DNA of 64,000 nt, taken from assembly GCA_036961325.1 (NCBI GenBank), contig JBALVF010000002.1:210733-274732 (forward strand), given 5' to 3'. This stretch comes from Cycloclasticus sp. (lineage in GTDB: Bacteria; Pseudomonadota; Gammaproteobacteria; Methylococcales; Cycloclasticaceae). The translations under genes were made by a program, and so were the position numbers. A model generated the notes under the pieces. The model worked only from the letters and a program-made list of their open reading frames with translations. It was not told where the DNA came from and did no database searches. Below, in pieces: positions 6,005-24,262 of the stretch; the first letter of the stretch is position 1, and each line of letters starts with the position of its first letter.

Positions 6005-7405
6005 TTGGCTAAATTAACGTTTTATGGTGCAACAGAAGGTGTAACCGGTTCTTCCTATATTTTAGAGACGGGTGGTAAAACAATATTATTGGATTGCGGT
6101 CTTTTTCAAGGTGGGCGTGAAGCAGAAAAGTCGAATAAAGATCCGTTTCAATTTGACGTGAGCAAGATCGATGCGGTGGTTTTATCGCACGCACATTTGG
6201 ATCATTCTGGACGTTTGCCTAAATTGGTCGCCGAGGGTTATCAACGGTCTTTATATATGACAGATCCTAGCTGCGAGCTATTAGAAATTATGCTGAAAGA
6301 CGCGGCGTTTCTACAACAGCGCGATACAGAATGGGAAAATAAGCGCAGGCGTCGGCAAGGCAAAGATGAGATTGAAGCCATCTATACGATTGAAGACGTT
6401 GAAGCAACATTGGCACTGTGTGACGGTACTGCTTACGGCGTTCGTCGTGAAATACTGGAAGGCGTTGAGGTCTGTTTTCGAGACGCCGGGCATATCCTGG
6501 GTTCGTCCATCGTCGAATTATTTATCAATGAGAATGGCACAGAAAAAAAACTGGTGTTTTCTGGCGACCTTGGTAATAGCTGTGCGGCCTTATTGCGTGA
6601 CCCAGAAATAGTTGATAAGGCAGATGTGCTCATGCTGGAGTCGACCTATGGCGATCGTAACCACCGCCCGATGGATGAAACCCTGGACGAGTTTGCAAGC
6701 ATCATTACTGAAGCCTCAAAAAATGGCGGTAATATTTTGATCCCGTCTTTTGCCGTCGGTCGAACACAGGAAATTATCTTTCGTCTGGGTGAGCTTTATC
6801 AAAAAGGGTTGTTACGACACCAAGCCGTTTATCTGGATAGCCCAATGGCTATCGCCGTGACCGAGGTCTATCACCGTTACCAAAATTTTTATAATAAAGA
6901 AGATGCATCGACGATGCGGAAGGGCGCAAAAATGAGTTTACATTCCTTTCTACCGATACTGCGATATACCCCCTCAACAGAAGAGTCGATGGCGTTGAAT
7001 AATATAGAAGCAGGCGCAATTATTATTGCGGGCAGTGGAATGTGTACGGGAGGCCGTATACGCCATCATTTCAAGCATAATATATGGAAAAGGAAGGCAC
7101 ACGTAGTGATCGTCGGTTATCAAGCGGTTGGCACGCCTGGACGCTCTTTAGTAGATGGTGCGAAAACGTTTCGTCACGGTGGTGATGACATTGCTGTACA
7201 GGCTACTATTCATACCTTAGGCGGGTTTTCTGCCCACGCCAGCCAGTCGCAACTGGTCGACTGGATCAGTCACTTCAAAACACCACACCCAAGGTTATAT
7301 CTAGTCCATGGCGAAACGGAGACCAAATCAACTTTCCAAAAACACCTGGCAGGGGTTGGCTGGTCAGCCGAAATACCGCATGAAGGTGAAAGTATTACGT
7401 TTTAA
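6005..7405 (+). CDS. MBL-fold beta-CASP RNA-metabolising metallo-hydrolase
   Basis: HAHLDH, AGHILGS, FSGDLG, ESTYGDR, AVGRTQE, GFSAHA, VHGE motifs; GGAG RBS before TTG start. Confidence 0.92.
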   Translation: MAKLTFYGATEGVTGSSYILETGGKTILLDCGLFQGGREAEKSNKDPFQFDVSKIDAVVLSHAHLDHSGRLPKLVAEGYQRSLYMTDPSCELLEIMLKDAAFLQQRDTEWENKRRRRQGKDEIEAIYTIEDVEATLALCDGTAYGVRREILEGVEVCFRDAGHILGSSIVELFINENGTEKKLVFSGDLGNSCAALLRDPEIVDKADVLMLESTYGDRNHRPMDETLDEFASIITEASKNGGNILIPSFAVGRTQEIIFRLGELYQKGLLRHQAVYLDSPMAIAVTEVYHRYQNFYNKEDASTMRKGAKMSLHSFLPILRYTPSTEESMALNNIEAGAIIIAGSGMCTGGRIRHHFKHNIWKRKAHVVIVGYQAVGTPGRSLVDGAKTFRHGGDDIAVQATIHTLGGFSAHASQSQLVDWISHFKTPHPRLYLVHGETETKSTFQKHLAGVGWSAEIPHEGESITF

Positions 7406-7465
7406 ATATAAAGCTCTATGGCTTTTACTTTAGACTGGTTTAGAAGGGTGGGGGAGTAGTTCCTT
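6900..7465 (+). repeat. Direct repeat copy 1 (MBL 3' third plus 60 nt downstream)
   Basis: Aligns gap-free to 23575..24140 at an offset of 16675 bp; about 34 mismatches in 566 nt by hand count. Confidence 0.95.
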
Positions 7466-7482
7466 CTAATAACTTGTTAGGC
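7464..7482 (+). other. attI-like integron recombination site (copy 1, upstream part deleted)
   Basis: TTCTAAT-AACTT-GTTAGGC fits L box / 5-nt spacer / R box. GTTAGGC is the exact complement of the next attC R'' (GCCTAAC). Confidence 0.7.
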
Positions 7483-7505
7483 GCAAATTAAAAGGTAACA
7501 ATCTT

Positions 7506-8384
7506 ATGTTCATAGTTAGAAATATTCTGGTGATATTAATCATTATGTTTTCAGGTAGTAATATTAATTTGTATGCTCAGGAAATAATTGATAGTGGTGA
7601 TGAAAAAATCAACAAACCATTATATAAGCCTTTTATAGAAAGATACGTTCTCGATGAGCTAAAACAATTACGTCAGGATCAATCAAATCTACGAGTAGAA
7701 GTTACCGAGAAAGTTGCAAATGCAAAGTTAGATTCGTCTGATAGAGTTATTAGATATACCGCTGATACAACAAATATCATTTTTTATATAATAACTGCGG
7801 CGGCTTCTATCATAGTTTTTCTAGGATGGAACTCATTGCGAGATATAAAAGACAAAATAGAATTTATTACGACTGAAAAATTGTCAGTTCTTACTCAGGA
7901 ATACGAAAATAGGTTAGATGAATTAGAGAATAAGCTGAAGAATCGTTCAGAACAAATAATAGCGACACAAGAGGAAGTGTCAAATTCAAACACAATACAT
8001 TCTTTGTGGATGCGAGCAGGACTAGAAAAAAGCGATCAAGAGAAGCTCAATATATATGATCATATATTAGAGATTAATCCTGATGATACGGAGGCACTAA
8101 CGTATAAGGCTGATGTTTTATTGGATTTGGGTGAAATAAAATGGGCTCTGTCATTATCAAACCAAGCGATAGAAAATGATAGTAATTATGCTTTAGCCTA
8201 TTGGCAGAGAGCTTGTGCTAAAGCGATGCTAGAGCAAGAAAGCGAAGCCTTAGAAGACATAAAAATGGCTATTAAACTTACTGATACCCTAAAAGATGAA
8301 ATAGCCGATGAAATTTATTTTGAGAGACTGAAATCTAATCATGAGTTTCTTGCTTTAATGGAAGAAATGGATTCTACGACTTAA
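7506..8384 (+). CDS. Membrane-anchored TPR-repeat protein (cassette)
   Basis: N-terminal hydrophobic segment, second TM, coiled coil, then TPR-like repeats (ALTYKADVLLDLGE, ALAYWQRACAKA); AT-rich. Confidence 0.75.
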   Translation: MFIVRNILVILIIMFSGSNINLYAQEIIDSGDEKINKPLYKPFIERYVLDELKQLRQDQSNLRVEVTEKVANAKLDSSDRVIRYTADTTNIIFYIITAAASIIVFLGWNSLRDIKDKIEFITTEKLSVLTQEYENRLDELENKLKNRSEQIIATQEEVSNSNTIHSLWMRAGLEKSDQEKLNIYDHILEINPDDTEALTYKADVLLDLGEIKWALSLSNQAIENDSNYALAYWQRACAKAMLEQESEALEDIKMAIKLTDTLKDEIADEIYFERLKSNHEFLALMEEMDSTT

Positions 8385-8435
8385 CATTATAATGTAGATG
8401 AATCGTTATTATTTTGTGCTTTTCAATTCAATAAG

Positions 8436-8522
8436 GCCTAACAAAGCGGTCAAGTTCGCATGTGCAAAAAGCGCATATGCTTGGACTCCGCTTACGCTTC
8501 GCCACTTACCTCGGCGTTATGC
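8436..8522 (+). other. attC site
   Basis: R'' GCCTAAC; L'' GGT(C)AAGT pairs with L' ACTTACC leaving one extrahelical base; R' GTTATGC; 87 bp imperfect palindrome. Confidence 0.9.
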
Positions 8523-8533
8523 AAAGAAAATAA

Positions 8534-9727
8534 TTGAAAAATATAAGTGCGACACTTAACATGGAATCAACGTCTCAACTTCTTATAGCGCTTGGTGGAA
8601 TTCTTCTATTGGGCCTGGTGATGTCCGCTCTCGGTCAACGGACATTGCTACCTCGAGTAACGCTGCTGTTAATTTTAGGCGTGGTCATAGGCAAGGAAAT
8701 GCTGGATATCATTCCGCTTATATTTTCCGAGTTGTTTGATATTATTGCTGTTATAGCACTACTGATGGTCGGATTTCTGTTAGGAGGAAGGCTCACCATT
8801 GATTCCCTACGGCAGTCCGTGGGCAAGGTTATGTGGATCTCCATAAGTGCAGCAATAATCACTACCCTTATTGTCAGCTTGGGGCTTGTGTGGGTCGGCG
8901 TATCGAAAGAGATTGCGATTCTGTTAGGTTGTATCGCCTCAGCCACCGCCCCAGCGGCAGTTCTGGATGTTGTTACGGAATCCAATTACAAAGGGCCATT
9001 CAAGGATTTGCTGCTTTCTATCGTTACACTTGATGACGCTTGGGCGTTGATGCTGTTTGGAATAGGTGTTGCCGTGGTTACGTCCTTAAATAGTCATGGA
9101 ATAGATGCCTCATCGATCCTGATGGCTCTTAGAGATATTGGCGGGGCTATAATTTTAGGTTTGTTGATTGGGTTTCCTGCCTCTTATTTAACGGGACGGC
9201 TTAAACCAGGGCAACCCATTTTGTCTGAAGCGCTGGGGCTTGTATTTGTCTGTGGCGGATTGGCCATCTGGTTTGATGTATCTTTTTTAATTGCTTCCAT
9301 GGTGCTCGGGGCGGTAATCACAAATTTTGCCAAACATCATGAGTATCCATTTCATGCTATTGAGGGTATTGACTGGCCGTTCATGGTGATCTTTTTCGTC
9401 CTGGCAGGGGCATCGCTTGAATTCAAGGCAGTAGCTGAGGTTGGTTTGGTCGGGACAGTGTATATTCTTGGCCGAATAGCAGGAAAACTCCTTGGGGCTA
9501 GAATTGGTAGTCAAATGAGCAGCGCAGATCAACAGACAAAAAGCTGGATGGGTGTTGCCTTATTGCCCCAGGCGGGTGTTGCTATTGGTATGGCGCTCGT
9601 AGCTTCAAACTATTTCCCTGAATATCGGCAAACATTGTTATCGGTGGTTATCAGCTCTACTATATTTTTTGAAATAATTGGTCCGGTATTTACTCGCATG
9701 GCTTTAAAGCGAGCACATAAAGCTTAA
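8534..9727 (+). CDS. Cation:proton antiporter (CPA superfamily; cassette)
   Basis: About 12 TM segments; ASATAPAAV, VTLDDAW, LLPQAGVAIGMAL motifs. Alternative ATG at 8561. Confidence 0.85.
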   Translation: MKNISATLNMESTSQLLIALGGILLLGLVMSALGQRTLLPRVTLLLILGVVIGKEMLDIIPLIFSELFDIIAVIALLMVGFLLGGRLTIDSLRQSVGKVMWISISAAIITTLIVSLGLVWVGVSKEIAILLGCIASATAPAAVLDVVTESNYKGPFKDLLLSIVTLDDAWALMLFGIGVAVVTSLNSHGIDASSILMALRDIGGAIILGLLIGFPASYLTGRLKPGQPILSEALGLVFVCGGLAIWFDVSFLIASMVLGAVITNFAKHHEYPFHAIEGIDWPFMVIFFVLAGASLEFKAVAEVGLVGTVYILGRIAGKLLGARIGSQMSSADQQTKSWMGVALLPQAGVAIGMALVASNYFPEYRQTLLSVVISSTIFFEIIGPVFTRMALKRAHKA

Positions 9728-9778
9728 CAAGAAACTCCAGCCGACACGAAAAACGTGCAGCTAAATATATCGTTAGGC
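9722..9778 (+). other. attC site (short, L-box pairing degenerate)
   Basis: R'' GCTTAAC contains the upstream gene's stop codon; central CACG-AAAAA-CGTG hairpin; R' GTTAGGC; 57 bp. Confidence 0.75.
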
Positions 9779-9812
9779 ACACGCTCAAATCTGTTTTATT
9801 TTGGGGAATGGC

Positions 9813-10532
9813 ATGTCAACGAAGACGGTTAGTGAAGGGGCAGCTCAAACAGTAACCACTCGCCAGTGGATCCGGTTAGTTGTGGTGTATCTCCTTATCC
9901 CGCTGATTTTATTGATATGCGGTGGGGACCTAGGTTGGTGGCAGGCGTGGGTCTATTCCACGCTGATCTTAGCCGCTGGTATAGGGGGGCATATATGGGC
10001 GGAACAACGACACCCCGGATTAACGGCCGAACGACAAAATATTGAAAATATCCAAAACGCAAAAGCCTGGGATAAAGTGCTTGCTCCTCTGATGGCAGTG
10101 AGTATCAGTTTTCCTATGGTTATTGTGGCAGGGCTGGACCATCGCTATAACTGGTCCCCCGAATTTCCGCTATGGTTAAGTGTAATTGGATTCATATTGA
10201 TCGCGTTCGGTTACGTTTTCGCTACATGGGCATTGGCAGACAACCGCTTTTTCTCCAGCGTGGTACGTATTCAGACGGAACGAGGGCATGTGGTGTGTGA
10301 TACCGGCCCGTACCGGTTTGTTAGGCATCCGGGTTATGCCGGAAATATTCTTGCACTGCTCGGTATTGTTCTTGCCCTGGGTTCGGTATGGACACTGATA
10401 CCTGCGGCGGTGGCAACAATCATTACGGTAATTAGAACAGTACTTGAAGACCAGACTTTACAGGAAGAATTACTGGGCTATCGAGACTATGCACAAGGTG
10501 TGCGCTATCGGTTAATTCCTGGAATTTACTGA
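9813..10532 (+). CDS. Isoprenylcysteine carboxyl methyltransferase family membrane protein (cassette)
   Basis: TGPYRFVRHPGYAG and EDQTL motifs with TM helices. ATG at 9813 within ORF 9801..10532. Confidence 0.85.
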   Translation: MSTKTVSEGAAQTVTTRQWIRLVVVYLLIPLILLICGGDLGWWQAWVYSTLILAAGIGGHIWAEQRHPGLTAERQNIENIQNAKAWDKVLAPLMAVSISFPMVIVAGLDHRYNWSPEFPLWLSVIGFILIAFGYVFATWALADNRFFSSVVRIQTERGHVVCDTGPYRFVRHPGYAGNILALLGIVLALGSVWTLIPAAVATIITVIRTVLEDQTLQEELLGYRDYAQGVRYRLIPGIY

Positions 10533-10675
10533 GAGAGTTGATTGCTGGGTATACCAGATCAGTTAAGAACTAGTTATGTGTTTCATATATTTACATCAAG
10601 AGCACATCAATAAAACTTATGAGAATTCACGATTCAAGGCTTGCCCCTTTAACCTTACTTAAAATTTAATTTCAT

Positions 10676-11719
10676 TTAAACTATAGCAGGCTCTTCGACT
10701 AACTCCGGCGGCATTAAGGCCCCATCATCCTGCATCGTACCTAAGTGTTCTTCTAGCAGAGAAGTTTTCTGTGAACGACCGATATGGAATAATGCTTCAC
10801 CTTCATACACCAATGGTATGTTACTTCTACCAATAATGATGCCTTCTGAGGTTGCTTCAATGACGGCTTCAGCTTTTCCGGCAGGATCTGAAATAATACC
10901 CAATACATCGCCCTTAACAACCAAGTCACCTAATGCCGCCTGAGCTCTTAAAATGCCACTTTTAGATGCGCGGATCCAATTGCTTGACTTCAATACAACC
11001 GGGGGCTTTATCTTTTTAGCTCTGGATTTAGCTAACATACCAAGTTCACGCATTACATTGAGGATGCCTTGGACACCAATTCGAATTGATACCTCATCAA
11101 ACCGAAGTGCTTCTCCCGCTTCATAAACCATGACAGGAACTCCTGCTTTCTCTGCGGCATAACGTAGGGAATTTTCGGGTGGTGCTGAATGTAATAAAAC
11201 AGGAGATGCAAATGCGCGAGATACAACATCCATCCTATCAGCCTTCAAATCAGCTCTTATCTGAGGAAAATTATCGCGATGTATTGCAGCAGTATGTAAA
11301 TCAATACCGAAATCTGAACGACAGACAACCTCAGACATAAAAATATTAGCAAGTCTTCCTGCTAGAGAACCTAATCCTCCCCCAGGAAAGCAACGATTTA
11401 AATCACGACGATCTGGTAAATAGCGTGAATGATTATCGAAGCCAAAAACATTGACAACTGGAACAGCAAGCAGTGTTCCTTTAAGGTGCTTTATGCTATT
11501 AAGCGACAATATCCTGCGGATAATTTCAACCCCGTTAATCTCATCTCCATGTACTGCCGCACTCAAAAAAAGGACAGGACCATTTTTTTTCCCGTGAACA
11601 ACATGCACCGGCATGGACACTTCTGTTTCAGAGTGAAGGCCAGGTAAAGTTAGGTGAACAACTTTTGATTCGCCAGGCTGTACGGTCTCACTGTTTATCT
11701 CAAAATACGCTCTCATCAA
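10676..11719 (-). CDS. Succinylglutamate desuccinylase/aspartoacylase family (M14-like) protein
   Basis: AAVHGDEING, DLNRCFPG, DLHT, YEAG motifs; usual neighbour of rimK. Confidence 0.88.
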   Translation of the reverse strand: MMRAYFEINSETVQPGESKVVHLTLPGLHSETEVSMPVHVVHGKKNGPVLFLSAAVHGDEINGVEIIRRILSLNSIKHLKGTLLAVPVVNVFGFDNHSRYLPDRRDLNRCFPGGGLGSLAGRLANIFMSEVVCRSDFGIDLHTAAIHRDNFPQIRADLKADRMDVVSRAFASPVLLHSAPPENSLRYAAEKAGVPVMVYEAGEALRFDEVSIRIGVQGILNVMRELGMLAKSRAKKIKPPVVLKSSNWIRASKSGILRAQAALGDLVVKGDVLGIISDPAGKAEAVIEATSEGIIIGRSNIPLVYEGEALFHIGRSQKTSLLEEHLGTMQDDGALMPPELVEEPAIV

Positions 11720-11742
11720 TCTAGGCTGTTTTTTTGGTTATT

Positions 11743-12204
11743 TTATTTGACATGCGTTCTACATGAATGCGGTCGTTTTTTACGCTTGCCAACGAGGTAC
11801 GACTTACCAGAGTCCACTAAGTAAAGCCCTTTCATGGCAGTTCGTCCAATAAGCATTCGAAAACCCATACTGTCTCGGTTCGTCAGCGTCATTTCAATAG
11901 TATGCAGATTAGGCCCAATTGCAATCTGGGTTCCTATGACATACCGTTTTTCACTGTGTCCACCTGAGTCTCGTACTTCACGTTCATCTAGTAGTACGGC
12001 CTGACATTCGATAACAGTATCCAAATCTTTCTGCTTTGGATGAATATTGAACTTCACAAGCTTTACACCATTATTTTCTACTAGCTGCACATTGAATGCG
12101 TGTAATGCAGACGTTCTTGCGCCGGTATCGACTTTAGCCTTAATTTGATCAATGCCCAGGTCAGGAAGTGATACCCATTCTCTCCATCCCAATATATCGG
12201 CCAT
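11743..12204 (-). CDS. RimK-associated putative protease (RimB-like, aspartyl-protease fold)
   Basis: GWREWV...KAKVDTGARTSALHA...RDSMGFRMLIGR. Confidence 0.88.
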   Translation of the reverse strand: MADILGWREWVSLPDLGIDQIKAKVDTGARTSALHAFNVQLVENNGVKLVKFNIHPKQKDLDTVIECQAVLLDEREVRDSGGHSEKRYVIGTQIAIGPNLHTIEMTLTNRDSMGFRMLIGRTAMKGLYLVDSGKSYLVGKRKKRPHSCRTHVK

Positions 12205-12208
12205 CTTC

Positions 12209-13411
12209 TCAGGTCTCGTTATGAGTAATAGGTGTATCAGGTAAATCCTGAACCTTAGGTCGACGTCGACGCCTTGTTTTAGCGGGGATCATACCTTTCA
12301 TAGATTCGAGTTTTCCAAAGCATAATAACCTGTCATTTGGTTCTAAAACTCGGCTCATCTTAGGGTTCGGTATGACTTTATTACCACGGTATAATGTGAG
12401 CACATTGAGGTCTTTTTCCGATAAATCAGTTTCTGACAGTTGTTTGCCAACGTATTCAGAGCCTTCAGGAACGTATATTTCACTGACGTCATAACCCTTA
12501 CTAACGGTGAGCCTTTGTCGAATATCTATCTCAGGAAATTCGACCTGTGCGGCAATATAGTCGATGATAGCTCCAGCAACATCTAGCTGTGTACATGTTT
12601 CAATTCCTTCCAAGCCTGGTGAAGAATTGACCTCCATTATTTGAGGTCCAGTTGAACTTTCAAGCATATCAACACCAGCCACTCGTAAACCCAAGATTTG
12701 GGTTGCACGGATAGCGGCTTCTACGTATTCATCAGAGAGTTCAACCGGCTCAGCTTTACCACCTCGATGAACATTGCTGCGGAATTCCTGACCTTGCGCA
12801 ACCCGCCTCATAGAAGCAACCACTCTGTCTCCAACGACAAATGCACGAATATCTTTACCACGGCTTTCTGCAACGAATTTCTGAATAAGAATGTTCTGCT
12901 TTTGACTTTGCAGCAACTCAATAATGGACTCAGCCGTTTTTACTGTTTCAGCAAGAAGCACACCGATACCCTGGGTTCCCTCAATCAATTTGATAATTAC
13001 TGGTGCACCACCAACTCTTTCAATCGCAGGTAATACATCCTTCTTATCACGAACAAACGTGGTTTCTGGTATGCCAATATGGTGCTTTGCAAGTATTTGT
13101 AAACTACGTAATTTATCACGCGAATTTGTTATTCCATTAGCGGTATTAGCACAAAAAACATCCATCTCCTGAAACTGCCTAACAACTGCAGTACCATAAT
13201 AGGTAATAGAGGCACCAATCCTCGGCAAAACAGCGTCATAAGACCGAAGTTGTTTTTGCCGAAAATACAGGTCTGGTGTTCCGCGTTTTAGGTCAATAGC
13301 AAATTTCAGTGTGTCCAATACCTTAACATCCATACCTCTGTCTAGAGCAGCTTCTTTAAGCCTGCGCGTGCTGTATGCCTTGAGTGATCTAGATAATATT
13401 GCTAATCTCAT
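12209..13411 (-). CDS. rimK: RimK-family alpha-L-glutamate ligase with C-terminal TrkA-C (RCK_C) domain
   Basis: ATP-grasp motifs IKLIEGTQGIGV, FRSNVHRGG, GVDML, EVNSSPG; extra ~100 aa resembling TrkA-C (EIYVPEGSEYVGKQL...LEPNDRLLCFG). Confidence 0.9.
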   Translation of the reverse strand: MRLAILSRSLKAYSTRRLKEAALDRGMDVKVLDTLKFAIDLKRGTPDLYFRQKQLRSYDAVLPRIGASITYYGTAVVRQFQEMDVFCANTANGITNSRDKLRSLQILAKHHIGIPETTFVRDKKDVLPAIERVGGAPVIIKLIEGTQGIGVLLAETVKTAESIIELLQSQKQNILIQKFVAESRGKDIRAFVVGDRVVASMRRVAQGQEFRSNVHRGGKAEPVELSDEYVEAAIRATQILGLRVAGVDMLESSTGPQIMEVNSSPGLEGIETCTQLDVAGAIIDYIAAQVEFPEIDIRQRLTVSKGYDVSEIYVPEGSEYVGKQLSETDLSEKDLNVLTLYRGNKVIPNPKMSRVLEPNDRLLCFGKLESMKGMIPAKTRRRRRPKVQDLPDTPITHNET

Positions 13412-13666
13412 ACTTGAACTCCCAAACCTTCAACCTGACTACTAATAACGATGTTGTTTTCTAAATCGGTCATTACATATCCTCACAATTGTTAGCCATA
13501 CATTTACTCATACCGGATCGCATATAATACCAACCCATTGAAAAAGACAAGGTTTATTATTCTGGATATGCAAGAATATCCAAGCCTTACATTTCTAATG
13601 TAACCGTTTGCACTAGCAAAATACCTCAGCCTGGTAGAAAATCTGTTTATAAATTAACTAGAATAG

Positions 13667-13703
13667 ACAACACAACACAACACAACACAACACAACACAA
13701 CAC
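13667..13703. repeat. Pentanucleotide simple sequence repeat (ACAAC)7 + AC
   Basis: Read directly; intergenic, about 256 bp upstream of the rimK start. Confidence 0.97.
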
Positions 13704-13924
13704 TAGGCCCCATAAGTGAATCTAAACAGGCGGTTTTCATGGATTGCTATCTGATAGTAACAACAGACACATAATAGCCTTATCGTTAGTTATTTCATTT
13801 CAAGCTGGGAAAGGCCGCTGGCTCAAAGGCGCGGGAAACTCTTTAAGTATGATTAATTATTATTCGAAATAATTACGATTATTTGGCGCTAAAAAACGAT
13901 ACACTTACGGTGCTAAAAAATCAC

Positions 13925-17174: not shown

Positions 17175-17649
17175 ATCATATTTTCTCGACTATAAATACG
17201 GGGTAGATAATCGCATACAGCGCACATCCATTTCCATCCATTTGAAAACCAATAATTCAAGTTTAAACCCATCTTAGTATTTTCATAATAGCTGATATAG
17301 CACCTAATGTACTGCTCTAATAGAGCCAGACACATTAATGAGAGACAATAACCGTCAACCATTGAGGTGTTTATCATTGGTGAACCTGAGCCTGCCGTAG
17401 TTTATCGGGTGCATTAAATAAATGATAAATCAAAGGACTCATACTCAATTCATTTTTGGTTTAAACCGAATTACTTACCCAGTTATTGAATTAACATCTG
17501 AGGTTGTGGCGTTAGTTTAAGGCGGCCCGACTTCATACTAATGCAATAAAATCATTCATTTTGAATTAATGTGATTGGCCTATAATGCGCAATTTATTTT
17601 GGTGCTCTACGAGTTGAGTAAAATATATGGTTTATATGGTGGGACTTTA

Positions 17650-19401
17650 ATGGGTGACTTATTGAAGACTAGAATCAATCTTCTAGTGTGTATTGTCTTG
17701 CTATGTGTTGCATTCCAGGCGCAGTCGTCTGGAATGTCTGTTGCGGTTGAGCTGGAGGGTGCTCCGAAGGGTAAAGCCGAAGTTTTACTCAGCGGTCTAA
17801 GTATCTACCGGCTAAAAGACAGCGAACGCTTAACGCAAAGGCAGCTCCAACAACTGCATCAAAAAGCGGTCGATGAATTAAGCGATATGCTGAAGGTTTA
17901 TGGGTTTTATCAAGCTAAAATCAATAGTCAATTAATACAACAAAATGACCAATGGCGGGCGAGCTATCTAATTGACTTAGGTCAGCAGGTTAGTTTATTT
18001 AAAGTGCAGGTAACGGTGCAAGGTGAGGCTGAAACGGATAATAAATTTTCTGCTTTAGTGTCAAATTTTCCGTTAAAAGAAGGTGGTTTGTTTGACCACG
18101 ATAGTTATGAATCCGCGAAAAAAAAGTTATTGCGACTGGGTGTGGAACGCGGCTACTTTGATGCTGAATTAAAGCAGCATAAAGTTGAGATCGACATGCT
18201 CATTAATACGGCAGTGGTTACTTTGTTTTATGACTCTGGGCCACGCTATAAGTTTGCTTCACTAGATGTGCCTGACACCGTTATTAGCCATCAAACCCTA
18301 TCAAAATTAATTCCATTTAAAGCGGGTGATCCTTATTTCGCTGGAAAAGTACTGACGTTAAAAAAAAATCTAAAGAATGCTGCTTATTTTCGTGACGTTG
18401 AGGTCGATGTGCTGACTGACCAGCGACAAAATAATGAAGTAAAGCTTCGCGTTAGCCTTAGCGAAGAACTTCAGTATAAATATAATGCAGGTCTGGGGTT
18501 TGGCACCGATACTGGAGCCAGGATCAGTTTGGGTTGGGAAAATAAATACTTTAACTCCAGTGGGCACCGATTAAGTGCGGCAGCAAGGCTTTCTCAAACG
18601 GGTAACACCGTGACTGCGGATTATCAGATACCGCTATTGAGTGGGCTGGTCTCGGATATTGGATTCAGCAGTGAGTTTAAAACCGAAGACACCGATAGCA
18701 CACAAAGCAGTTCCTTTGCTATTGGCAGTTACTATAAGGCTAAACGTTGGGGCTGGGGTGAAACTGGAAGCATTAAACTGTTGAGTGAAAGCTTTGATGT
18801 GTCAGACGATAGTAATACCTCAGTTATACTAATACCTAGTATTGGTTGGACTAAAACCTGGGCTGATGACAGCATTTATACAAAACAGGGTGGCAAACTA
18901 TCTTTATCTTTATCAGGCGCCAGCGAGGCATTGTTATCAGATGTGAGTTTTGCACAAGTCGTGTTACGGGGTAAATATATCTACTCGTTCAACCACAGCG
19001 GACGATTGATAACCCGCGCAAATCTTGGTGCTACAGAGGTGAGTGATTTTGAAAAACTACCCAGCTCATTACGTTTTTTCGCCGGTGGCGATAACAGTAT
19101 TCGTGGCTTTGATTTTCAATCATTGGGCCCACTCGGTGACGATGGAAATGTTGAAGGGGGGCGTTACTTAGCCACCGTTAGCGTGGAATATGAACACATG
19201 TTTACAGACAAATGGGGCGCTGCGGTCTTTACTGATGCTGGTAACGCTTATAACGGCGTCAACGACCCATTCGAGCATAGCGTAGGGCTTGGCTTGCGTT
19301 GGCGTTCACCGATTGGACTGATTCGGTTTGATGTAGCAAAAGCGCTGTCTGATAGCGATAATGGACTCGGCTTCCATTTGGTGATTGGGCCAGATTTATG
19401 A
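17650..19401 (+). CDS. tamA: Autotransporter assembly outer-membrane protein TamA (Omp85 family)
   Basis: POTRA-like N-terminus and RFFAGGDNSIRGF barrel motif; ends IGPDL; directly upstream of tamB. ATG at 17650 preferred over TTG at 17575. Confidence 0.9.
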   Translation: MGDLLKTRINLLVCIVLLCVAFQAQSSGMSVAVELEGAPKGKAEVLLSGLSIYRLKDSERLTQRQLQQLHQKAVDELSDMLKVYGFYQAKINSQLIQQNDQWRASYLIDLGQQVSLFKVQVTVQGEAETDNKFSALVSNFPLKEGGLFDHDSYESAKKKLLRLGVERGYFDAELKQHKVEIDMLINTAVVTLFYDSGPRYKFASLDVPDTVISHQTLSKLIPFKAGDPYFAGKVLTLKKNLKNAAYFRDVEVDVLTDQRQNNEVKLRVSLSEELQYKYNAGLGFGTDTGARISLGWENKYFNSSGHRLSAAARLSQTGNTVTADYQIPLLSGLVSDIGFSSEFKTEDTDSTQSSSFAIGSYYKAKRWGWGETGSIKLLSESFDVSDDSNTSVILIPSIGWTKTWADDSIYTKQGGKLSLSLSGASEALLSDVSFAQVVLRGKYIYSFNHSGRLITRANLGATEVSDFEKLPSSLRFFAGGDNSIRGFDFQSLGPLGDDGNVEGGRYLATVSVEYEHMFTDKWGAAVFTDAGNAYNGVNDPFEHSVGLGLRWRSPIGLIRFDVAKALSDSDNGLGFHLVIGPDL

Positions 19402-22400
19402 TGCGTCGCTTAGTCATATCAACTCTCGTTATTGTTGCATTGCTGATTAGTGTTTTAGTGTGCTTGTTTACGACTGAAGTCGGCTTGTCAACATCGTCAT
19501 CAATGCTGCAACGTTGGGTACCGGCTTTAAGTATTGAAAAAGTAACTGGACGACTTAATCAATCTGCGACACTTGAGGGGCTCGTCTATCGCGCCGCGGA
19601 TCAGCAGCAATATCGAATCAATAAGTTGATTGTTAGCTTATCGCCTATCAGTTTATTGAGTGGTCGTATGACTGTTGATGTGCTGCAATTGGATGGTATT
19701 GAACTGACTCTGGGCAGCTCAGCGGAAAAACCGCTAGAGGATAACGCGTTCTTGCTAGCCGATCTTGCTTTGCCTATAGCATTCAATATCGCCGATTTAC
19801 GCGTTGGTAACGTATCACTAATTAATGAGTCGTCACAAAAAAATACGGTCTTTACAGGTTTGTCTGCGTCGCTTAGCGCATCTGGGCAAACGTTAAACCT
19901 TAAACAATTAACGTTACAAAAGGACGCTGAAGCAAGCCTTGAAATAGAAGGTATTATCAGCCTGAACGGTACTGATCCGACGCATTTAAATTACCGTTGG
20001 CGTTTAGCAACGAACGCTAAACCGCTGTCAGCTGAAGGTCAGATTAAAGGCAATTTTGCAGACTTAACGATTGAGCAGCAACTGCTAGAACCGGTTCAAT
20101 CCAAGCAAACCATTAAGGTAACGAAGTTATTGAGCGACTTTAATTGGACGGCTCAGGCGCAACTGGCAGCATTAACATGGTCGGATTTGATAGATGGACA
20201 ACCAGGCGGACTTAGTAACGCCACGTTAACAGCGAGCGGCACTAAACGTAACGCCAAGGTGATAATTAACAGCCAACTTGTTGATCATGCCCTCGCTGAC
20301 TTTAAATTAGATTTTAATGCCAATAGCGATGAGGCCGATAACTGGAAAATTAACGCCCAGCTCCTATCTTCAAGCAAGCTGGGATTGACTTTAGTGGGTT
20401 ATGTTCGGCAACCATTTAAGCAACCTCAATTAGAATTAGAGGGTAACTGGCAACAAATACAGTGGCCTGTTGGAGCGGACAACATCCCTTTATTTAGCCG
20501 AAAAGGCAAGTTTTCGATACACGGCAAGGACGAGCAATATCGTATTGAAGCATTAGGTGATTTAGACATCGAGCAACAACACGCTACGTTCAGCTCTGAA
20601 ATTGACTTTACAAAAGATCGATTAGTACTTAAACGTTTTGACCTTAAAGGCTTTGGTGGTCAGACAACCTTGAGCGGGGAAGTGTTATTTAATACAGAAA
20701 ATCCCGTATATCAACTACAGGCCAAACTGATGAACTTAACCGTTCCCAGAGCCTTGAGTAAGGCATTGATGGTTATCAATAAGGGGGATATTGAACTATC
20801 AGGAACGATTGATGCACCGCTGCTGAATATTCAGGCTGAACTGCTGGTTGATACTAAACCCGTTAATTTAAACTTAACGTATCAGACAGATGCTAGCGGT
20901 AGCAACCAGCTAAATATACTTGCTAACATGAAAACGGCTCGCGCCAAATTTAATGGAACGGCACAGTTGAGCGATCTGTTTAAGCTAAATGGTGTCGTTA
21001 AGTTACATCAGGTCGATCCGAGCTTATTCGCAAAAGACTGGCCGGGGACGTTGTCAGGTGGTTGGCAAATGAGCGTAAATAAGCGTTCGGGAGATGGGTT
21101 TGATCTTAATATTAAAGCGCTAACTATTGACGGCACACTCAGGCAACGGCCGCTGCGAGTGACAGCCGATTTGAGTTACCTCAATGGGGCTATTAATGTT
21201 CCGTCGTTACAAATAAGTTCGGCTAAATCAGTGATCCGCGCGGAGGGCAGCTTAAAAGACAAGTTGGCTTTCAATTGGTGGTTGAATACACCAAACCTGG
21301 CAGATATTCACCCTGATTTAACGGGTCAATTACACGCCAATGGCAAACTGTCTGGCGATATGGATACGCCTTCAATAAGTACTAAATTGAACGGCAAAAA
21401 CATTATATACACGGGCGTATTTCAGCTTGATAAAGTCGACTCCGAGGTGTTTGTTGATATGGCAAAGCAAGGCCGAATGGACGTAAACATCGCTTTTTCG
21501 GCTTTATCTTTGAAAGGTTCGCAAATTATAGACGGCAGCCTGTCGATGACTGGCCCAACAGATCAGCATAACGTTACGTTAAAGGCGAATGACAAAACAG
21601 CCAGCGTATTTGGTCGCGCATCAGGCGGTTTTACTGATCAGCAATGGCGAGGAAAATTCAGCGAACTCCACGTTAATCAGGAAGATGGCACTCAGTGGAA
21701 AGCGAAAAAATTTGGATCGATTGTGCTGGCGAAAAATCATTTCCAGATAGATCAGCAGTGTTTACAGGCTGCTCAAAGTGCCTTCTGTCTGCAAGCGAAT
21801 TACAAAGAAAAAGGTGACTGGAAAAGCAAGTTTAGCTTGCAGGCAATACCGATGACGCTGGTGAATGCTTACACTGATTTTGTCGAGCCATTGCAAGGCG
21901 AAATAAACGCAGATATAGAATTAAACGGACAGGGACTTTACCCTACCGGTGGACGTGGTCAACTCAATGTACAAAAGGCCCGTCTATTATTAGATGCTGA
22001 GACAAAGGATCAAAAAATCATCCCACTAAAGCAACTAAGCCTTAGTTACCAATTAAGCGAAAAGAACAGTCTTATCGATTTGTTGCTGACACCCGATATT
22101 AAAGGTGTTAGTCCATTGACGGGACGTTTGTCGCTGTCTGATATTAAAACCGCAATACTGGATCCAGATAAGTCGACGGTATCGGGTTATTTAAAAACGA
22201 CTGTAGCTGATTTGGCGGAAATTGATTCCTTACACGATGACTACGAGAATCTAAAAGGCCAGCTAACAGTTGATATTGGTGTCTCAGGGACGGTTAAAAA
22301 ACCATTATTAAATGGCCTTCTGGCGCTTAACAACGGCCATGTCGAACTGCCGCGCTTAGGTATTAAGCTTGAAGACGTTCGCGTATTGGCTGAAAGTGAT

Positions 22401-23429
22401 GCCCTCAACGTCATTAAGTTAAATTACCAGCTCAAATCTGGACAAGGGCAGTTAATTGGTGAAGCTGAGCTGAGCAATAGCAAACAAGGCTGGAATATTG
22501 TAAGCACAGCTAAAGGTAAGGATGTTCAAGTGTTAAACCTGCCTGAGGCATATGTAGTGGCTTCGCCCGATTTGTCCTTCGCGCTAAAAAATAATGCTTC
22601 CCAACTCTCAGGTACGGTTATTGTGCCGATTGCAGAACTGGTACCTTTGCAATTCAATTCCCCAGTGTCGGCGAGTGATGATGTGGTGGTGATAAACGGA
22701 CAAAGTGAAAAGGCAGCCCAATCAATAGCCACGGATTTTAATGTGAACCTTACATTAGGCGATAAGGTTAAGGTCGAGGGATTAGGATTTGATGGCCGAT
22801 TGTTAGGCAAACTATTAATCAGTGGCAATAGTAAAAAACTATTATTAGGCACTGGCGATATCGTCATTAAAGAAGGTAGTTACGTCGCCTATGGGCAAAA
22901 ATTAGAGATTGATAACGGTAAAATTCATTTTACCGGCGGTGCTTTAGATAATCCCAGTCTGGATATTAAAGCGATTAGAAAAAGTGGAAAAGTTACCGCT
23001 GGCCTTCAGGTAACCGGTACCGCAGATGAACCTTTAGTCGGTCTCTTTTCTAGTCCCTCAATGAGTGATGACAATATATTGTCTTACCTAATGATTGGAC
23101 GGCCACTGGCCAGTGCTTCAGCGGGTGATGCTGCAATCCTCGCTTCAGCGGCCACTGGCCTGGGTATTAAGGGGGGCAATATGTTAGGCGAACAAATCGC
23201 CAGTACCTTCGGTTTGGATTCGTTAGCAATCAATGGCAATGGTGGGGGCGATACCGCCTTACAAATAGGCAAATACCTCTCGCCTAAGTTATACCTGAGT
23301 TACGGTATTGGTTTGTTTGAACCGGTTAGTACCGTCAAGCTAAATTATGAACTCAATGAAAGTTGGTCGGTAAAAACGGAATCGGGTGTAGAGACCGAGG
23401 TCGATATCTTATATACAAAAGAAAGATAA
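19398..23429 (+). CDS. tamB: Translocation/assembly module TamB
   Basis: 1343 aa, N-terminal anchor, beta-rich body, DUF490-like C-terminus (GKYLSPKLYLSYG); overlaps the tamA stop. Confidence 0.9.
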   Translation: MMRRLVISTLVIVALLISVLVCLFTTEVGLSTSSSMLQRWVPALSIEKVTGRLNQSATLEGLVYRAADQQQYRINKLIVSLSPISLLSGRMTVDVLQLDGIELTLGSSAEKPLEDNAFLLADLALPIAFNIADLRVGNVSLINESSQKNTVFTGLSASLSASGQTLNLKQLTLQKDAEASLEIEGIISLNGTDPTHLNYRWRLATNAKPLSAEGQIKGNFADLTIEQQLLEPVQSKQTIKVTKLLSDFNWTAQAQLAALTWSDLIDGQPGGLSNATLTASGTKRNAKVIINSQLVDHALADFKLDFNANSDEADNWKINAQLLSSSKLGLTLVGYVRQPFKQPQLELEGNWQQIQWPVGADNIPLFSRKGKFSIHGKDEQYRIEALGDLDIEQQHATFSSEIDFTKDRLVLKRFDLKGFGGQTTLSGEVLFNTENPVYQLQAKLMNLTVPRALSKALMVINKGDIELSGTIDAPLLNIQAELLVDTKPVNLNLTYQTDASGSNQLNILANMKTARAKFNGTAQLSDLFKLNGVVKLHQVDPSLFAKDWPGTLSGGWQMSVNKRSGDGFDLNIKALTIDGTLRQRPLRVTADLSYLNGAINVPSLQISSAKSVIRAEGSLKDKLAFNWWLNTPNLADIHPDLTGQLHANGKLSGDMDTPSISTKLNGKNIIYTGVFQLDKVDSEVFVDMAKQGRMDVNIAFSALSLKGSQIIDGSLSMTGPTDQHNVTLKANDKTASVFGRASGGFTDQQWRGKFSELHVNQEDGTQWKAKKFGSIVLAKNHFQIDQQCLQAAQSAFCLQANYKEKGDWKSKFSLQAIPMTLVNAYTDFVEPLQGEINADIELNGQGLYPTGGRGQLNVQKARLLLDAETKDQKIIPLKQLSLSYQLSEKNSLIDLLLTPDIKGVSPLTGRLSLSDIKTAILDPDKSTVSGYLKTTVADLAEIDSLHDDYENLKGQLTVDIGVSGTVKKPLLNGLLALNNGHVELPRLGIKLEDVRVLAESDALNVIKLNYQLKSGQGQLIGEAELSNSKQGWNIVSTAKGKDVQVLNLPEAYVVASPDLSFALKNNASQLSGTVIVPIAELVPLQFNSPVSASDDVVVINGQSEKAAQSIATDFNVNLTLGDKVKVEGLGFDGRLLGKLLISGNSKKLLLGTGDIVIKEGSYVAYGQKLEIDNGKIHFTGGALDNPSLDIKAIRKSGKVTAGLQVTGTADEPLVGLFSSPSMSDDNILSYLMIGRPLASASAGDAAILASAATGLGIKGGNMLGEQIASTFGLDSLAINGNGGGDTALQIGKYLSPKLYLSYGIGLFEPVSTVKLNYELNESWSVKTESGVETEVDILYTKER

Positions 23430-23574
23430 ATTCACCGACATTTACCGTGGGCTAACTTGCGCCTGGTCAAAGACTTTTCCCTATAAGTTGCTTTTTACAT
23501 AATCGAATACGGTAATGGTTAACCCGTAGGCGCAAAATTGTGTGAATTTAAATAGCCTTAACCTGCTCAAGGAT

Positions 23575-24080
23575 AAGACGCTTCGACGATGAAGAAGGGC
23601 GCAAAAATGAGCTTGCATTCCTTTTTACCGATACTGCGATATACCCCCTCAACAGAAGAGTCGATGGCGTTGAATAATATAGAAGCAGGCGCAATTATTA
23701 TTGCGGGCAATGGCATGTGCACAGGTGGCCGTATACGGCATCATTTCAAGAACAATATATGGAAAAGGAAGGCACACGTAGTGATCGTCGGCTATCAAGC
23801 GGTTGGCACGCCTGGGCGATCTTTGGTGGATGGTGCAAAAACGTTTCATCACGGTGGTGATGATATTGCTGTTCAGGCGACTATTCATACCTTAGGCGGG
23901 TTTTCTGCCCACGCCAGCCAATCGCAACTGGTCGACTGGATAAGTCACTTCAAAACACCACACCCCAGGTTATATCTCGTCCACGGTGAAACGGAGACCA
24001 AATCAACTTTCCAAAAACACCTGGCAGGTGTTGGCTGGTCAGCCGAAATACCGCATGAAGGTGAAAGTATTACGTTTTAA
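23575..24080 (+). pseudogene. 5'-truncated second copy of the MBL beta-CASP gene
   Basis: Last 163 aa of the 6005..7405 protein with 4 substitutions (R>K, S>N in AGSGM, H>N, R>H); lacks the HxHxDH catalytic domain. Confidence 0.9.
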
Positions 24081-24140
24081 ATATAAAGCTCTATGGCTTT
24101 TACTTTAGACTGGTTAAGAAAGGTGGGGGAGTAGTTCCTT
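23575..24140 (+). repeat. Direct repeat copy 2
   Basis: Partner of 6900..7465. Confidence 0.95.
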
Positions 24141-24240
24141 GTTTGGTCTTTATTATAAGATGACAGGGTATTATAGTTCGGACAAGTGCCCGCTTTTCTT
24201 TCGGTGTATATGTAAGGGAATTACAGGGACTTTTTGTTCC

Positions 24241-24259
24241 TACTAATAACTTGTTATAA
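24241..24259 (+). other. attI-like integron recombination site (copy 2)
   Basis: TACTAAT-AACTT-GTTATAA; very close to the class 2 attI2 core as I recall it (TACTAATAAAATGTT). GTTATAA is the exact complement of the first cassette's R'' TTATAAC. Confidence 0.78.
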
Positions 24260-24262
24260 ATC

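What the first reader, a model, noticed from the sequence alone, without database searches (positions are those of the whole stretch)
6900..24140. 566-bp, ~94%-identical direct repeat of the MBL 3' end brackets a 16.7-kb block and duplicates an attI platform
6900..7465 and 23575..24140 align without gaps at an offset of 16675 bp. By hand count there are about 34 mismatches but only 4 amino-acid changes. This synonymous bias suggests both copies came from functional alleles, so the block may have entered from a related lineage by recombination in the MBL gene rather than by local duplication. Each copy is followed by an attI-like site and a different cassette set. Recombination between the repeats would excise or amplify array 1, rimK, zntB, mscS and tamAB, and would join the intact MBL gene to array 2.
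Basis: partly seen in the sequence, partly recalled or inferred. Interest (0 to 1): 0.72.

Follow-up and report, generated by a model that had tools for sequence, protein, structure and literature searches.

The report
Duplicated integron platform with deletion scar
The 566-bp repeat is real: it is the leftover 3' end of a second copy of a nuclease gene plus cassette-insertion site, cut down by a 6.5-kb deletion, so this Cycloclasticus-like chromosome carries two integrase-less integron cassette arrays, a known kind of element in an unusual doubled layout.

Summary
Window 6900-7465 and 23575-24140 align without gaps, with 34 mismatches, 4 amino-acid changes and dN/dS 0.04.

Both copies end at the same insertion point, TAATAACTTG|TTA. 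Each is followed by genuine integron cassettes: six attC sites, and 23 of 24 variable core positions complementary to the cassette's own 5' end. At least six different first cassettes occupy this junction in the window and in related sequences. No integron integrase is present in the window or in any related contig, so both arrays meet the CALIN definition on the sequence held.

The 16.7-kb block is not an import through recombination inside the gene. In at least five related contigs the single intact unit, NaPi-DUF211-VIT-P-type ATPase-MBL-insertion site-cassettes, sits between tamB and the o134/OEP efflux genes. That is where copy 2 sits. Nineteen bases of the unit's 5' end survive at 23556-23574, fused to MBL codon ~299. 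The repeat's left edge is therefore a 6.5-kb deletion scar.

How the second, intact unit (copy 1) arose is unresolved: inter-strain recombination or a roughly 23-kb segmental duplication. "MBL" here means a beta-CASP nuclease fold, not a beta-lactamase. This is a new member of a known kind, of moderate interest.

The parts
392..410 (+). 5' start of unit 1 (AACCTGATCAAGAACAAGA), just upstream of the NaPi gene. It is the counterpart of 23556-23574.
   Evidence: it aligns with the L082/L163 spacer-to-unit junction and with window 23556-23574 (16 of 19 identical).
6005..7405 (+). Intact 466-aa MBL-fold beta-CASP nuclease gene. It is not a beta-lactamase.
   Evidence: Pfam Lactamase_B + Beta-Casp + RMMBL. 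The best NCBIfam hits are beta-CASP nucleases, all below their cut-offs. It is 96% identical to Cycloclasticus-labelled MAG proteins.
6900..7465 (+). Repeat copy 1: MBL codons ~299-466 plus 60 nt downstream.
   Evidence: It is 100% identical to the Logan contig L081.
7406..7476 (+). Short form of the attI-like platform, lacking the 102-nt segment. The crossover G is at 7476 in TAATAACTTG|TTAGGC.
7477..8516 (+). Cassette 1 of array 1: TPR protein (34% GC), with attC at 8436-8522.
   Evidence: R'' GCCTAAC is the exact complement of the cassette start G|TTAGGC. Central hairpin. The cassette is replaced by a different one in L001 at the same junctions.
8517..9772 (+). Cassette 2 of array 1: cation/proton antiporter, with attC at 9722-9780 (GCTTAAC ... 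GTTAGGC).
9773..10611 (+). ICMT/PEMT-like methyltransferase segment. It begins like a cassette (TTAGGC) but has no canonical attC at its end.
   Evidence: In L081 it is truncated at 9865 and fused to a partial attC plus a toxin-antitoxin cassette.
10612..10647 (+). IR-L: left half of a repeated palindromic element. Its partner IR-R is at 28491-28562.
   Evidence: A contig of run X1 (a marine metagenome) joins 10647 to 28491. Copies in L162 flank a BCCT gene.
10676..23429 (.). Chromosomal block: AstE-like, Zn protease, rimK, zntB and mscK on the minus strand; tamA and tamB on the plus strand.
   Evidence: Pfam. Related metagenome contigs are 96.4-99.9% identical.
23430..23555 (+). Spacer downstream of tamB, syntenic with relatives. 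Relatives carry a 3.8-kb copper-resistance island inserted at 23453.
   Evidence: L082 5728-5963 matches window 23345-23578.
23556..23574 (+). 19-nt remnant of the 5' end of unit 2. The deletion junction lies at 23574/23575, with AAGA microhomology.
   Evidence: Alignment A2.
23575..24140 (+). Repeat copy 2: the 3' 168 codons of MBL plus 60 nt. The residual ORF 23589-24080 lacks the catalytic MBL domain.
24081..24253 (+). Long form of the attI-like platform, including the 102-nt segment 24141-24242. The crossover G is at 24253.
   Evidence: It is 92-94% identical in L001, L082 and L163, and absent downstream of the more distant MBL homologues fetched.
24254..24798 (+). Array 2 cassette 1: 157-aa protein of unknown function, with attC at 24741-24806.
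   Evidence: (hairpin z -5.2).
24799..26733 (+). Array 2 cassette 2: 605-aa AAA_15/AAA_21 ATPase resembling the fused PARIS protein AriAB, with attC at 26653-26741.
   Evidence: PADLOC AriAB 1.5e-60, Pfam, hairpin z -4.4, core complementarity.
26734..27681 (+). Array 2 cassette 3: DUF2971 protein, with attC at 27628-27689.
   Evidence: (weak PDC-S31 hit).
27682..28464 (+). Array 2 cassette 4: 228-aa protein of unknown function, with attC at 28384-28472.
28491..28562 (+). IR-R: right half of the palindromic repeat at the distal end of array 2, followed by the o134-OEP-MFP-RND efflux genes.

Best explanation
Shown: the window holds two copies of an integron-like platform, each made of the 3' end of a beta-CASP MBL-fold gene followed by an attI-like insertion site. 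Each platform is followed by its own array of true attC-bearing cassettes. No integron integrase is nearby, so both arrays are of CALIN type. Copy 2 lies where related strains carry their single intact unit: tamA-tamB-spacer-[NaPi-DUF211-VIT-P-type ATPase-MBL-insertion site-cassettes]-palindromic repeat-o134-OEP efflux genes. In the window this unit has lost about 6.5 kb, from 19 nt inside its 5' end to MBL codon ~299, by a deletion between short AAGA matches. That deletion creates the left edge of the repeat. The right edge is the conserved platform, which ends at the G|TT crossover where cassettes are inserted. Copy 1 belongs to a second, intact unit further upstream, preceded by an NhaP-like gene. 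Inferred: both MBL copies were working genes for nearly all of their divergence, so the truncation is recent. The two units most likely came together when strains with different gene orders recombined through flanking homology. A segmental duplication with a period of about 23.2 kb is the main alternative. Cassette turnover at the site is presumed to need an IntI supplied from elsewhere, and the cassettes are probably transcribed by read-through from MBL.
For: The repeat and its synonymous bias. Deletion scar: alignment A2 shows the window matching L082 and L163 up to ...CAAGGATAAGA and then continuing as MBL codon ~299; raw sequences are. Canonical order in relatives: L082, L163, and L167, L168 and L169. 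Together these show tamA-tamB-copper island-NaPi-DUF211-VIT-P-type ATPase-MarC-MBL-cassettes, and, in L163, the continuation to SulP-IR-R-o134-OEP. Cassettes: attC sites follow each ORF, all on the plus strand. Hairpin z-scores reach -5.2. 23 of 24 variable core positions are complementary between a cassette's first bases and its own R'' box, P 2.6e-13. At least six different first cassettes sit at the same TAATAACNNG|TTA junction: window copy 1, window copy 2, L001, L082/L163/L168, and loose ends in the marine metagenome runs X2 and X5. The 60 nt after the stop codon differ at only 2 positions while dS is 0.29, which suggests constraint. No integrase: Pfam on the ORFs of at least 100-120 aa that look like genes and a tblastn lead search. 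The block is native: 96.4-99.9% identity to related metagenome contigs. The window's tamB is the protein on a 980-kb NCBI contig, which argues against a short chimeric contig.
Against: No public run holds the 23574/23575 junction or array 2, so the arrangement could not be checked with reads. Sequence upstream of window position 1 is not available. In one relative (L166) an NhaP-type gene follows tamB and the copper island, so the window's genome might carry a second tamAB copy upstream. That would make this a larger duplication than I can see. The origin of the second unit is therefore uncertain. The attI label rests on repeated use of one junction and on an L-box/R-box-like inverted pair; no integrase binding or adjacency is shown. 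No sigma-70-like promoter was found in the platform.
Confidence: 0.75

Rival explanations
1. One reading: the 16.7-kb block (array 1 plus rimK-zntB-mscK-tamAB) was imported from a related lineage by homologous recombination with one endpoint inside the MBL gene.
For: The 6% divergence is mostly synonymous, which fits two alleles from different lineages.
Against: The block genes are 96.4-99.9% identical to the closest strains in metagenomes. tamB plus the downstream spacer is also the order in a relative (L082). The repeat's left edge is preceded by 19 nt of the unit's own 5' end, the signature of an internal deletion. Copy 2's neighbours on both sides match those of the single unit in relatives.
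Confidence: 0.04
2. The two units arose by an in-genome segmental (tandem-like) duplication with a period of about 23.2 kb (392 versus 23556). Both MBL paralogues then stayed functional and diverged until the recent deletion in copy 2.
For: Both units are in the same orientation, and the unit's 5' start is retained at both places. In L166 an NhaP-type gene lies between tamB/copper island and the contig end, so the window may be preceded by another tamAB copy. In run X2 the unit's depth (about 700-1250) exceeds that of the block (about 470-650) and of array 1 (about 315-490).
Against: The strain closest to copy 1 (run X1, 100% identical over the 566 nt) shows single-copy depth for the unit and no copy-2-like allele. 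dS of 0.29 with no sign of gene conversion between paralogues 16.7 kb apart is a long time for a redundant copy to survive. Metagenome depth in mixed strains is ambiguous.
Confidence: 0.3
3. Assembly chimera: two strains, one with NhaP-unit-array 1 and one with tamB-spacer-deleted unit-array 2, were joined within the shared block. In that case the two copies never sit on one molecule.
For: The related population is strongly mixed and mosaic. No run could be found to verify the junctions.
Against: The window's tamB is recorded on a 980-kb NCBI contig. The copies differ by 6% and each has unique flanks, so they are not a collapsed or confusable repeat. Minor-strain contigs in X2 and X7 are identical to the window across 9826-10641, and X2 covers 10617-10984. 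Even under this rival the deletion junction must be real DNA.
Confidence: 0.08
4. A site-specific integrative island of the phage 21 / e14-in-icd type: an element carrying a replacement 3' end of its target gene inserted into MBL, leaving the original 3' end as copy 2.
For: This is the classic pattern of a duplicated gene 3' end with mostly synonymous differences around intervening DNA. Relatives show similar 3'-end duplications: 109 nt of tamB around a copper island and a 71-nt MBL remnant before o134.
Against: There is no integrase or other recombinase in the 16.7 kb. The intervening DNA is chromosomal core. The left edge is a deletion scar carrying the unit's 5' remnant.
Confidence: 0.03

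Closest known systems
CALIN (cluster of attC sites lacking an integron-integrase; Cury et al. 2016, PMC4889954)
   Same: Two or more attC sites with promoterless-looking cassettes in one orientation, and no intI within several kb. The arrays are small, with 2 and 4 attC sites. PMC4889954 proposes rearrangement of arrays or insertion at secondary sites as their origin.
   Different: Each array here starts at a conserved, repeatedly used insertion site fixed behind a housekeeping-type gene. The platform is present twice in one chromosome, and one copy is scarred by a deletion.
Sedentary chromosomal integrons such as the Vibrio superintegron; defence cassettes in such integrons (bioRxiv 10.1101/2024.07.02.601686)
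   Same: Chromosomal location, strain-to-strain cassette turnover, a toxin-antitoxin cassette (Unstab_antitox/ParE in L082 and L163), and a defence-like cassette (AriAB-like).
   Different: No adjacent intI and no identified Pc promoter. The arrays are short. The attC sites within the two arrays are heterogeneous rather than one homogeneous repeat family.
Cassette insertion at genomic attG sites (Loot et al., bioRxiv 10.1101/2022.09.11.507474)
   Same: Cassettes joined to non-integron chromosomal DNA at a GTT, producing integrase-less single cassettes or small arrays.
   Different: The same junction carries at least six different first cassettes. It is embedded in a roughly 175-nt region conserved at 92-94% across lineages, which behaves more like a dedicated attI than a one-off secondary site.
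Xanthomonas ilvD-linked integrons (bioRxiv 10.1101/2025.06.18.660453; the ilvD linkage is recalled from my own knowledge)
   Same: An integron fixed at one chromosomal position next to a conserved gene across a clade, with frequent decay.
   Different: Xanthomonas keeps intI, often as a pseudogene, between the neighbouring gene and the array. No trace of intI is seen here.
icd 3'-end duplication by phage 21 / e14 (recalled from my own knowledge, not tested)
   Same: A duplicated 3' gene end with mainly synonymous differences flanking intervening DNA.
   Different: That duplication is made by integrase-mediated insertion of an element carrying a surrogate 3' end. This one is made by a deletion inside a second copy of the whole unit.

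Membership tests
Integron gene cassette / attC site | Imperfect inverted repeat with an R'' box (RYYYAAC) and an R' box (GTTRRRY), placed directly after a usually single, promoterless ORF. | tested here: met
   Six sites were found (8436-8522, 9722-9780, 24741-24806, 26653-26741, 27628-27689, 28384-28472). All are on the plus strand and all follow an ORF. Some boxes deviate from the consensus by one base.
Integron gene cassette / attC site | Crossover at G|TT, so that the first six bases of a cassette complement its own R'' box. | tested here: met
   23 of 24 variable positions are complementary, P 2.6e-13. Relatives swap cassettes exactly at these junctions.
Integron gene cassette / attC site | The single-stranded site folds into a hairpin with extrahelical bases. 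| tested here: inconclusive
   All six have central stems. DNA-fold z-scores range from -0.8 to -5.2, and three are clearly better than shuffles. Extrahelical bases were not analysed, and no covariance model was run.
Complete integron | An intI gene (tyrosine recombinase with the IntI-specific insertion) adjacent to attI. | tested here: not met
   Pfam on the ORFs of at least 100-120 aa that look like genes, in the window and in L082, finds no Phage_integrase domain. The rest of the genome could not be searched.
Complete integron | A Pc promoter reading into the array. | tested here: inconclusive
   No sigma-70-like match and no terminator-like site between the MBL stop and the first cassette of array 2. 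Read-through from MBL is possible but untested.
attI site | A double-stranded site next to intI with inverted L and R core boxes, used as the primary insertion point for incoming cassettes. | tested here: inconclusive
   An inverted pair TAATAAC-NN-GTTAKRM is present, and at least six different first cassettes sit at the same G|TT. Adjacency to intI is not met, and integrase binding cannot be tested here.
CALIN | At least two attC sites clustered, with no integron integrase within about 4 kb (PMC4889954). | tested here: met
   Array 1 has 2 attC sites and array 2 has 4. The nearest sequence without an integrase extends 7.4 kb upstream and more than 35 kb downstream.
Integrative island that replaces the 3' end of its target gene (phage 21 / e14 type) | An element-encoded site-specific recombinase, with attL/attR made of the duplicated gene end. 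| tested here: not met
   No recombinase lies between the repeats. The left repeat edge is a deletion junction that retains 19 nt of the unit's 5' end.
Metallo-beta-lactamase (antibiotic resistance enzyme) | Membership of a class B beta-lactamase family at the curated score. | tested here: not met
   The best NCBIfam hits are beta-CASP nucleases (Cas14-type 370 bits against a cut-off of 800; aCPSF1 268 against 580). B3 lactamase models score about 25 bits against cut-offs of 240-625. The Pfam architecture is Lactamase_B + Beta-Casp + RMMBL.

The most novel reading that the evidence does not exclude
The lineage may maintain a working cassette-capture site with no cognate integrase gene. A conserved roughly 175-nt attI-like platform fixed behind a beta-CASP nuclease gene is used again and again, with at least six different first cassettes across strains. 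It would be served only in trans by an unlinked or transient IntI, or by another recombinase. The platform can be multiplied in one chromosome to found a second array. That would be an integrase-less, duplicable integron platform rather than a decayed integron.
Probability: 0.15. Interest if true: 0.6.

Novelty: new member of a known kind. Interest (0 to 1): 0.38.

Why it matters
The locus documents integron cassette arrays in a marine, Cycloclasticus-labelled lineage. It gives a clean natural example of how integrase-less arrays (CALINs) can arise and multiply. A platform consisting of a gene 3' end plus an insertion site is present twice, one copy is being eroded by deletion, and cassette content turns over strain by strain at one G|TT junction. 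Array 2 carries a PARIS-like (AriAB) defence cassette, in line with recent reports that chromosomal integron cassettes store anti-phage systems. It also guards against a misreading: "MBL" here is a beta-CASP nuclease fold, not an antibiotic-resistance enzyme. If the whole genome proves to lack intI, the repeatedly used site would bear on where attI sites come from and how cassettes spread without a resident integrase.

Tried and rejected
- **Chance repeat:** rejected.
- **tRNA or known RNA as integration target:** none found in the window.
- **Phage or integrative island with a surrogate 3' end:** rejected, because there is no recombinase and the left edge is a deletion scar.
- **Simple motif count for attC (TAACAA...CGTTA):** only 8 hits against about 4 expected, so not significant on its own. 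I relied instead on position, strand, hairpins and core complementarity.
- **Loose attC regex across 161 loci:** too noisy in AT-rich genomes to say whether distant MBL homologues carry arrays. A blast of the platform shows it only in the close clade.
- **Covariance model of attC:** not built, because MAFFT cannot align the variable centres.
- **Reads to verify the junction:** the best runs hold only 27% of the words of 22800-24800, and no run holds 23400-28600. At 96% likeness only fragments match copy 2.
- **Exact-protein look-ups:** those for o157, tamB, the MBL fragment and P0125 returned nothing. P0125 turned out to be the window's own tamB.
- **Promoter scan of the platform:** no hit.
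- **Literature on integrons in Cycloclasticus:** nothing relevant.

Full report
**1. Observation**

The repeat is in the sequence exactly as described. Window 6900-7465 and 23575-24140 align at an offset of 16675 with no gaps and 34 mismatches in 566 nt (94.0%). Identity in the neighbouring 50-nt windows drops to 14-38%, and the repeat finder recovers the same pair.

The 466-aa ORF at 6005-7405 has the Pfam architecture Lactamase_B + Beta-Casp + RMMBL. The ORF 23589-24080 holds only the Beta-Casp C-terminal part and RMMBL. NCBIfam places the protein among beta-CASP nucleases, with all hits below their cut-offs, and far from beta-lactamases. "MBL" is therefore a fold name here, not a resistance gene.

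A codon-based comparison gives 27.5 synonymous and 4.5 nonsynonymous differences. 26 of the 32 coding differences are at third positions, and there are 4 amino-acid changes. dS is 0.29 and dN/dS is 0.041.

Two details were missed:
- Homology resumes after a 102-nt indel (24141-24242, bounded by GTTCCT repeats and absent from copy 1) and continues to GTTA at 7479 / 24256.
- The 19 nt immediately left of copy 2 match window 392-410.

**2. The cassettes are real**

Every ORF boundary in 7477-9780 and 24254-28472 carries an attC-type site on the plus strand, with an R'' box ending in TAAC and an R' box beginning GTTA.

The motif count alone is not significant: 8 hits against about 4 expected. The hallmark of integron cassettes is met, however. 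Because crossover occurs at G|TT, each cassette's first six bases should complement its own R'' box. 23 of 24 variable positions do, P 2.6e-13. All six sites have central hairpins, three of them clearly better than shuffles.

Cassette limits are:

| Cassette | Coordinates |
|---|---|
| TPR protein | 7477-8516 |
| Cation/proton antiporter | 8517-9772 |
| 157-aa unknown | 24254-24798 |
| 605-aa ATPase | 24799-26733 |
| DUF2971 protein | 26734-27681 |
| 228-aa unknown | 27682-28464 |

The 605-aa ATPase matches the fused PARIS protein AriAB in PADLOC at 1.5e-60.

Related sequences exchange cassettes exactly at these junctions:
- L001 has a small ORF where the window has the TPR cassette.
- L082, L163 and L168 have an Unstab_antitox/ParE cassette first.
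- Loose ends in the marine metagenome runs X2 and X5 show two further sequences right after ...GTTA.

At least six different first cassettes therefore follow the same TAATAACNNG|TTA.

The platform between the MBL stop codon and this point is 92-94% identical in L001, L082 and L163, and it was not found after the more distant MBL homologues fetched. The 60 nt after the stop codon differ at 2 positions between the two window copies, whereas synonymous sites differ at about a quarter. This suggests the platform is under constraint.

**3. No integrase**

Pfam assignments for the ORFs of at least 100-120 aa that look like genes, in the window and in L082, include no tyrosine recombinase.

By the definition in PMC4889954 both arrays are CALINs. 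That paper and bioRxiv 10.1101/2022.09.11.507474 give the known routes to such arrays: loss of intI, rearrangement of arrays, or insertion at genomic sites. Whether the genome has an intI elsewhere could not be tested.

**4. What the repeat is**

The organism is a relative of MAGs labelled Cycloclasticus. In at least five related contigs the gene order is:

tamA - tamB - (3.8-kb copA/copB copper island) - NaPi - DUF211 - VIT - P-type ATPase - MarC - MBL - platform - cassettes

This is seen in L082, L163, L167, L168 and L169. In L163 it continues: cassettes - SulP - palindromic repeat (IR-R) - 71-nt MBL remnant - o134 - OEP efflux genes.

In the window, copy 2 has exactly these outer neighbours. 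tamB and its downstream spacer (23430-23555) are on the left. IR-R (28491-28562) and o134-OEP-MFP-RND are on the right.

Alignment A2 shows the window following L082 and L163 through the spacer and into the first 19 nt of the unit (AACCTGCTCAAGGATAAGA). It then jumps to MBL codon ~299. The corresponding stretch 411-6899 of unit 1, about 6.5 kb, is missing, and AAGA is present on both sides of the junction.

The left edge of the repeat is therefore an internal deletion scar in a second copy of the whole unit. It is not a recombination endpoint in the gene. The right edge is the shared platform, which ends where cassettes begin.

**5. The block between the copies**

AstE-like, Zn protease, rimK, zntB, mscK, tamA and tamB are 96.4-99.9% identical to contigs of the nearest strains in marine metagenomes. 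The block is resident DNA.

Its left end abuts a 36-nt half (IR-L, 10612-10647) of a palindromic repeat whose other half is IR-R. In run X1 the two halves lie on one contig. In L162 they flank a BCCT transporter gene. I record this but did not resolve it.

**6. Where the second unit came from**

The low dN/dS means both MBL copies were under purifying selection for almost all of their divergence, so the truncation is recent.

Copy 1 is 100% identical over the 566 nt to contig L081 of run X1 (99.3% over 4 kb, counting mismatches only). Copy 2 is 94% identical to copy 1 and 90-92% to L001, L082 and L163, and has no close full-length match in any run. Run X1 shows single-copy depth for the unit.

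The junction of the NhaP-like gene with the unit, as at window ~392, occurs in X1, X2, X3 and X7. The junction of the tamB spacer with the unit also occurs in X2. Both gene orders therefore exist in the population, and the window combines them.

I favour union by homologous recombination between strains with different orders, followed by deletion of the redundant part. I cannot exclude a segmental duplication with a period of about 23.2 kb, for two reasons:
- In L166 an NhaP-type gene follows tamB and the copper island.
- The sequence left of the window is unavailable.

Upstream of tamA the window, X1 and X2 have mscK, whereas L167, L168 and X3 have Crp-MlaA-MMPL. The whole neighbourhood is a patchwork.

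**7. Artefact?**

No run holds the 23574/23575 junction or array 2, so read-level verification was impossible.

Several points argue against a chimera:
- The window's tamB is the protein recorded on a 980-kb NCBI contig.
- The two copies differ by 6% and each has unique flanks.
- Minor-strain contigs in X2 and X7 are identical to the window across 9826-10641.

**8. Verdict**

The feature is a doubled, integrase-less integron platform with two small cassette arrays, and one platform copy is reduced to 566 bp by a deletion. It is a new member of a known kind (CALIN / chromosomal integron arrays) with an instructive layout. It is of moderate interest unless the genome proves to lack any intI.

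Noticed in passing
L082 1941-5727; L166-L169; insertion point is window 23453: Relatives carry a 3.8-kb copper-resistance island (multicopper oxidase CopA, CopB, cupredoxin-like protein) inserted at the 3' end of tamB. In L082 it is flanked by a 109-nt direct repeat of tamB's end (window 23345-23453). The window lacks it. The island contains no recombinase.
   Followed up: partly
window 10612-10647 and 28491-28562; L162 2040-2075, 3930-4000, 6234-6311; L163 8990-9067: A repeated palindromic element has its two roughly 30-nt arms 17.8 kb apart in the window. The arms are adjacent in a contig of run X1 and flank a BCCT gene in L162. Copies extend to about 150 nt and sit at the distal ends of cassette arrays. 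It may be a homogeneous attC-like family or a MITE-like repeat.
   Followed up: partly
L163 9157-9227; L162 6401-6471; L164 68-138 (equivalent to window 7339-7409): A 71-nt remnant of the MBL 3' end, 96% identical, lies about 210 nt upstream of o134 in relatives that also have the intact gene. It looks like an older scar of the same kind. The window lacks it.
   Followed up: partly
window 24828-26645: The 605-aa AAA_15/AAA_21 protein carried as one integron cassette matches the fused PARIS defence protein AriAB (PADLOC 1.5e-60). The next cassette (DUF2971) weakly matches the candidate system PDC-S31.
   Followed up: partly
window 6005-7405: The best NCBIfam match of the beta-CASP protein is the type VII CRISPR nuclease Cas14 model (E 1e-110, 370 bits, cut-off 800). 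The match covers only the nuclease part of the profile (positions 2-427 of 612). No match to any RNA family, CRISPR repeat families included, reached threshold in the Rfam scan and no other cas genes are nearby, so it is a relative of that nuclease domain and not a Cas14.
   Followed up: no
window 35046-40997: A stretch encoding a LuxR-type response regulator, a histidine kinase, a PAS-GGDEF-EAL protein and a PAS-MCP is nearly absent from the main strains of four metagenome runs. X3's contig skips it, replacing it with about 1.8 kb. It is a strain-specific island.
   Followed up: no
window 13667-13705: A (CAACA)n microsatellite lies in the rimK-zntB intergenic region and varies in length between metagenome contigs.
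   Followed up: no
window 24141-24242; L082 ~13100-13200: The 102-nt segment of the platform is missing from copy 1 and L081 through a deletion between GTTCCT repeats. A diverged look-alike of it precedes an amino-acid permease gene after the second cassette in L082. It could be a promoter or regulatory module.
   Followed up: no
L081 3974-4538 versus window 9865: In the closest relative the ICMT-like gene is cut after about 20 codons and fused to the 3' part of an attC followed by an Unstab_antitox/ParE cassette. The array distal to the antiporter cassette therefore differs between near-identical strains.
   Followed up: partly
window 3596-5874 versus L082, L163 and L168: Most of the P-type ATPase gene is deleted in several relatives, leaving a 122-aa N-terminal remnant. 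These relatives, and L167 and run X3, which keep the ATPase full-length, carry a MarC-family gene (about 845 nt, minus strand) between the ATPase and MBL. The window lacks that gene.
   Followed up: no
window 52548-57299: A cluster of nuclease-type genes (DUF1780 endonuclease, NERD with a topoisomerase zinc ribbon, pyrimidine-dimer glycosylase) surrounds a dicarboxylate symporter. A weak attC-like motif follows the DUF1780 gene at 53236-53315. This may be another accessory or defence patch.
   Followed up: no
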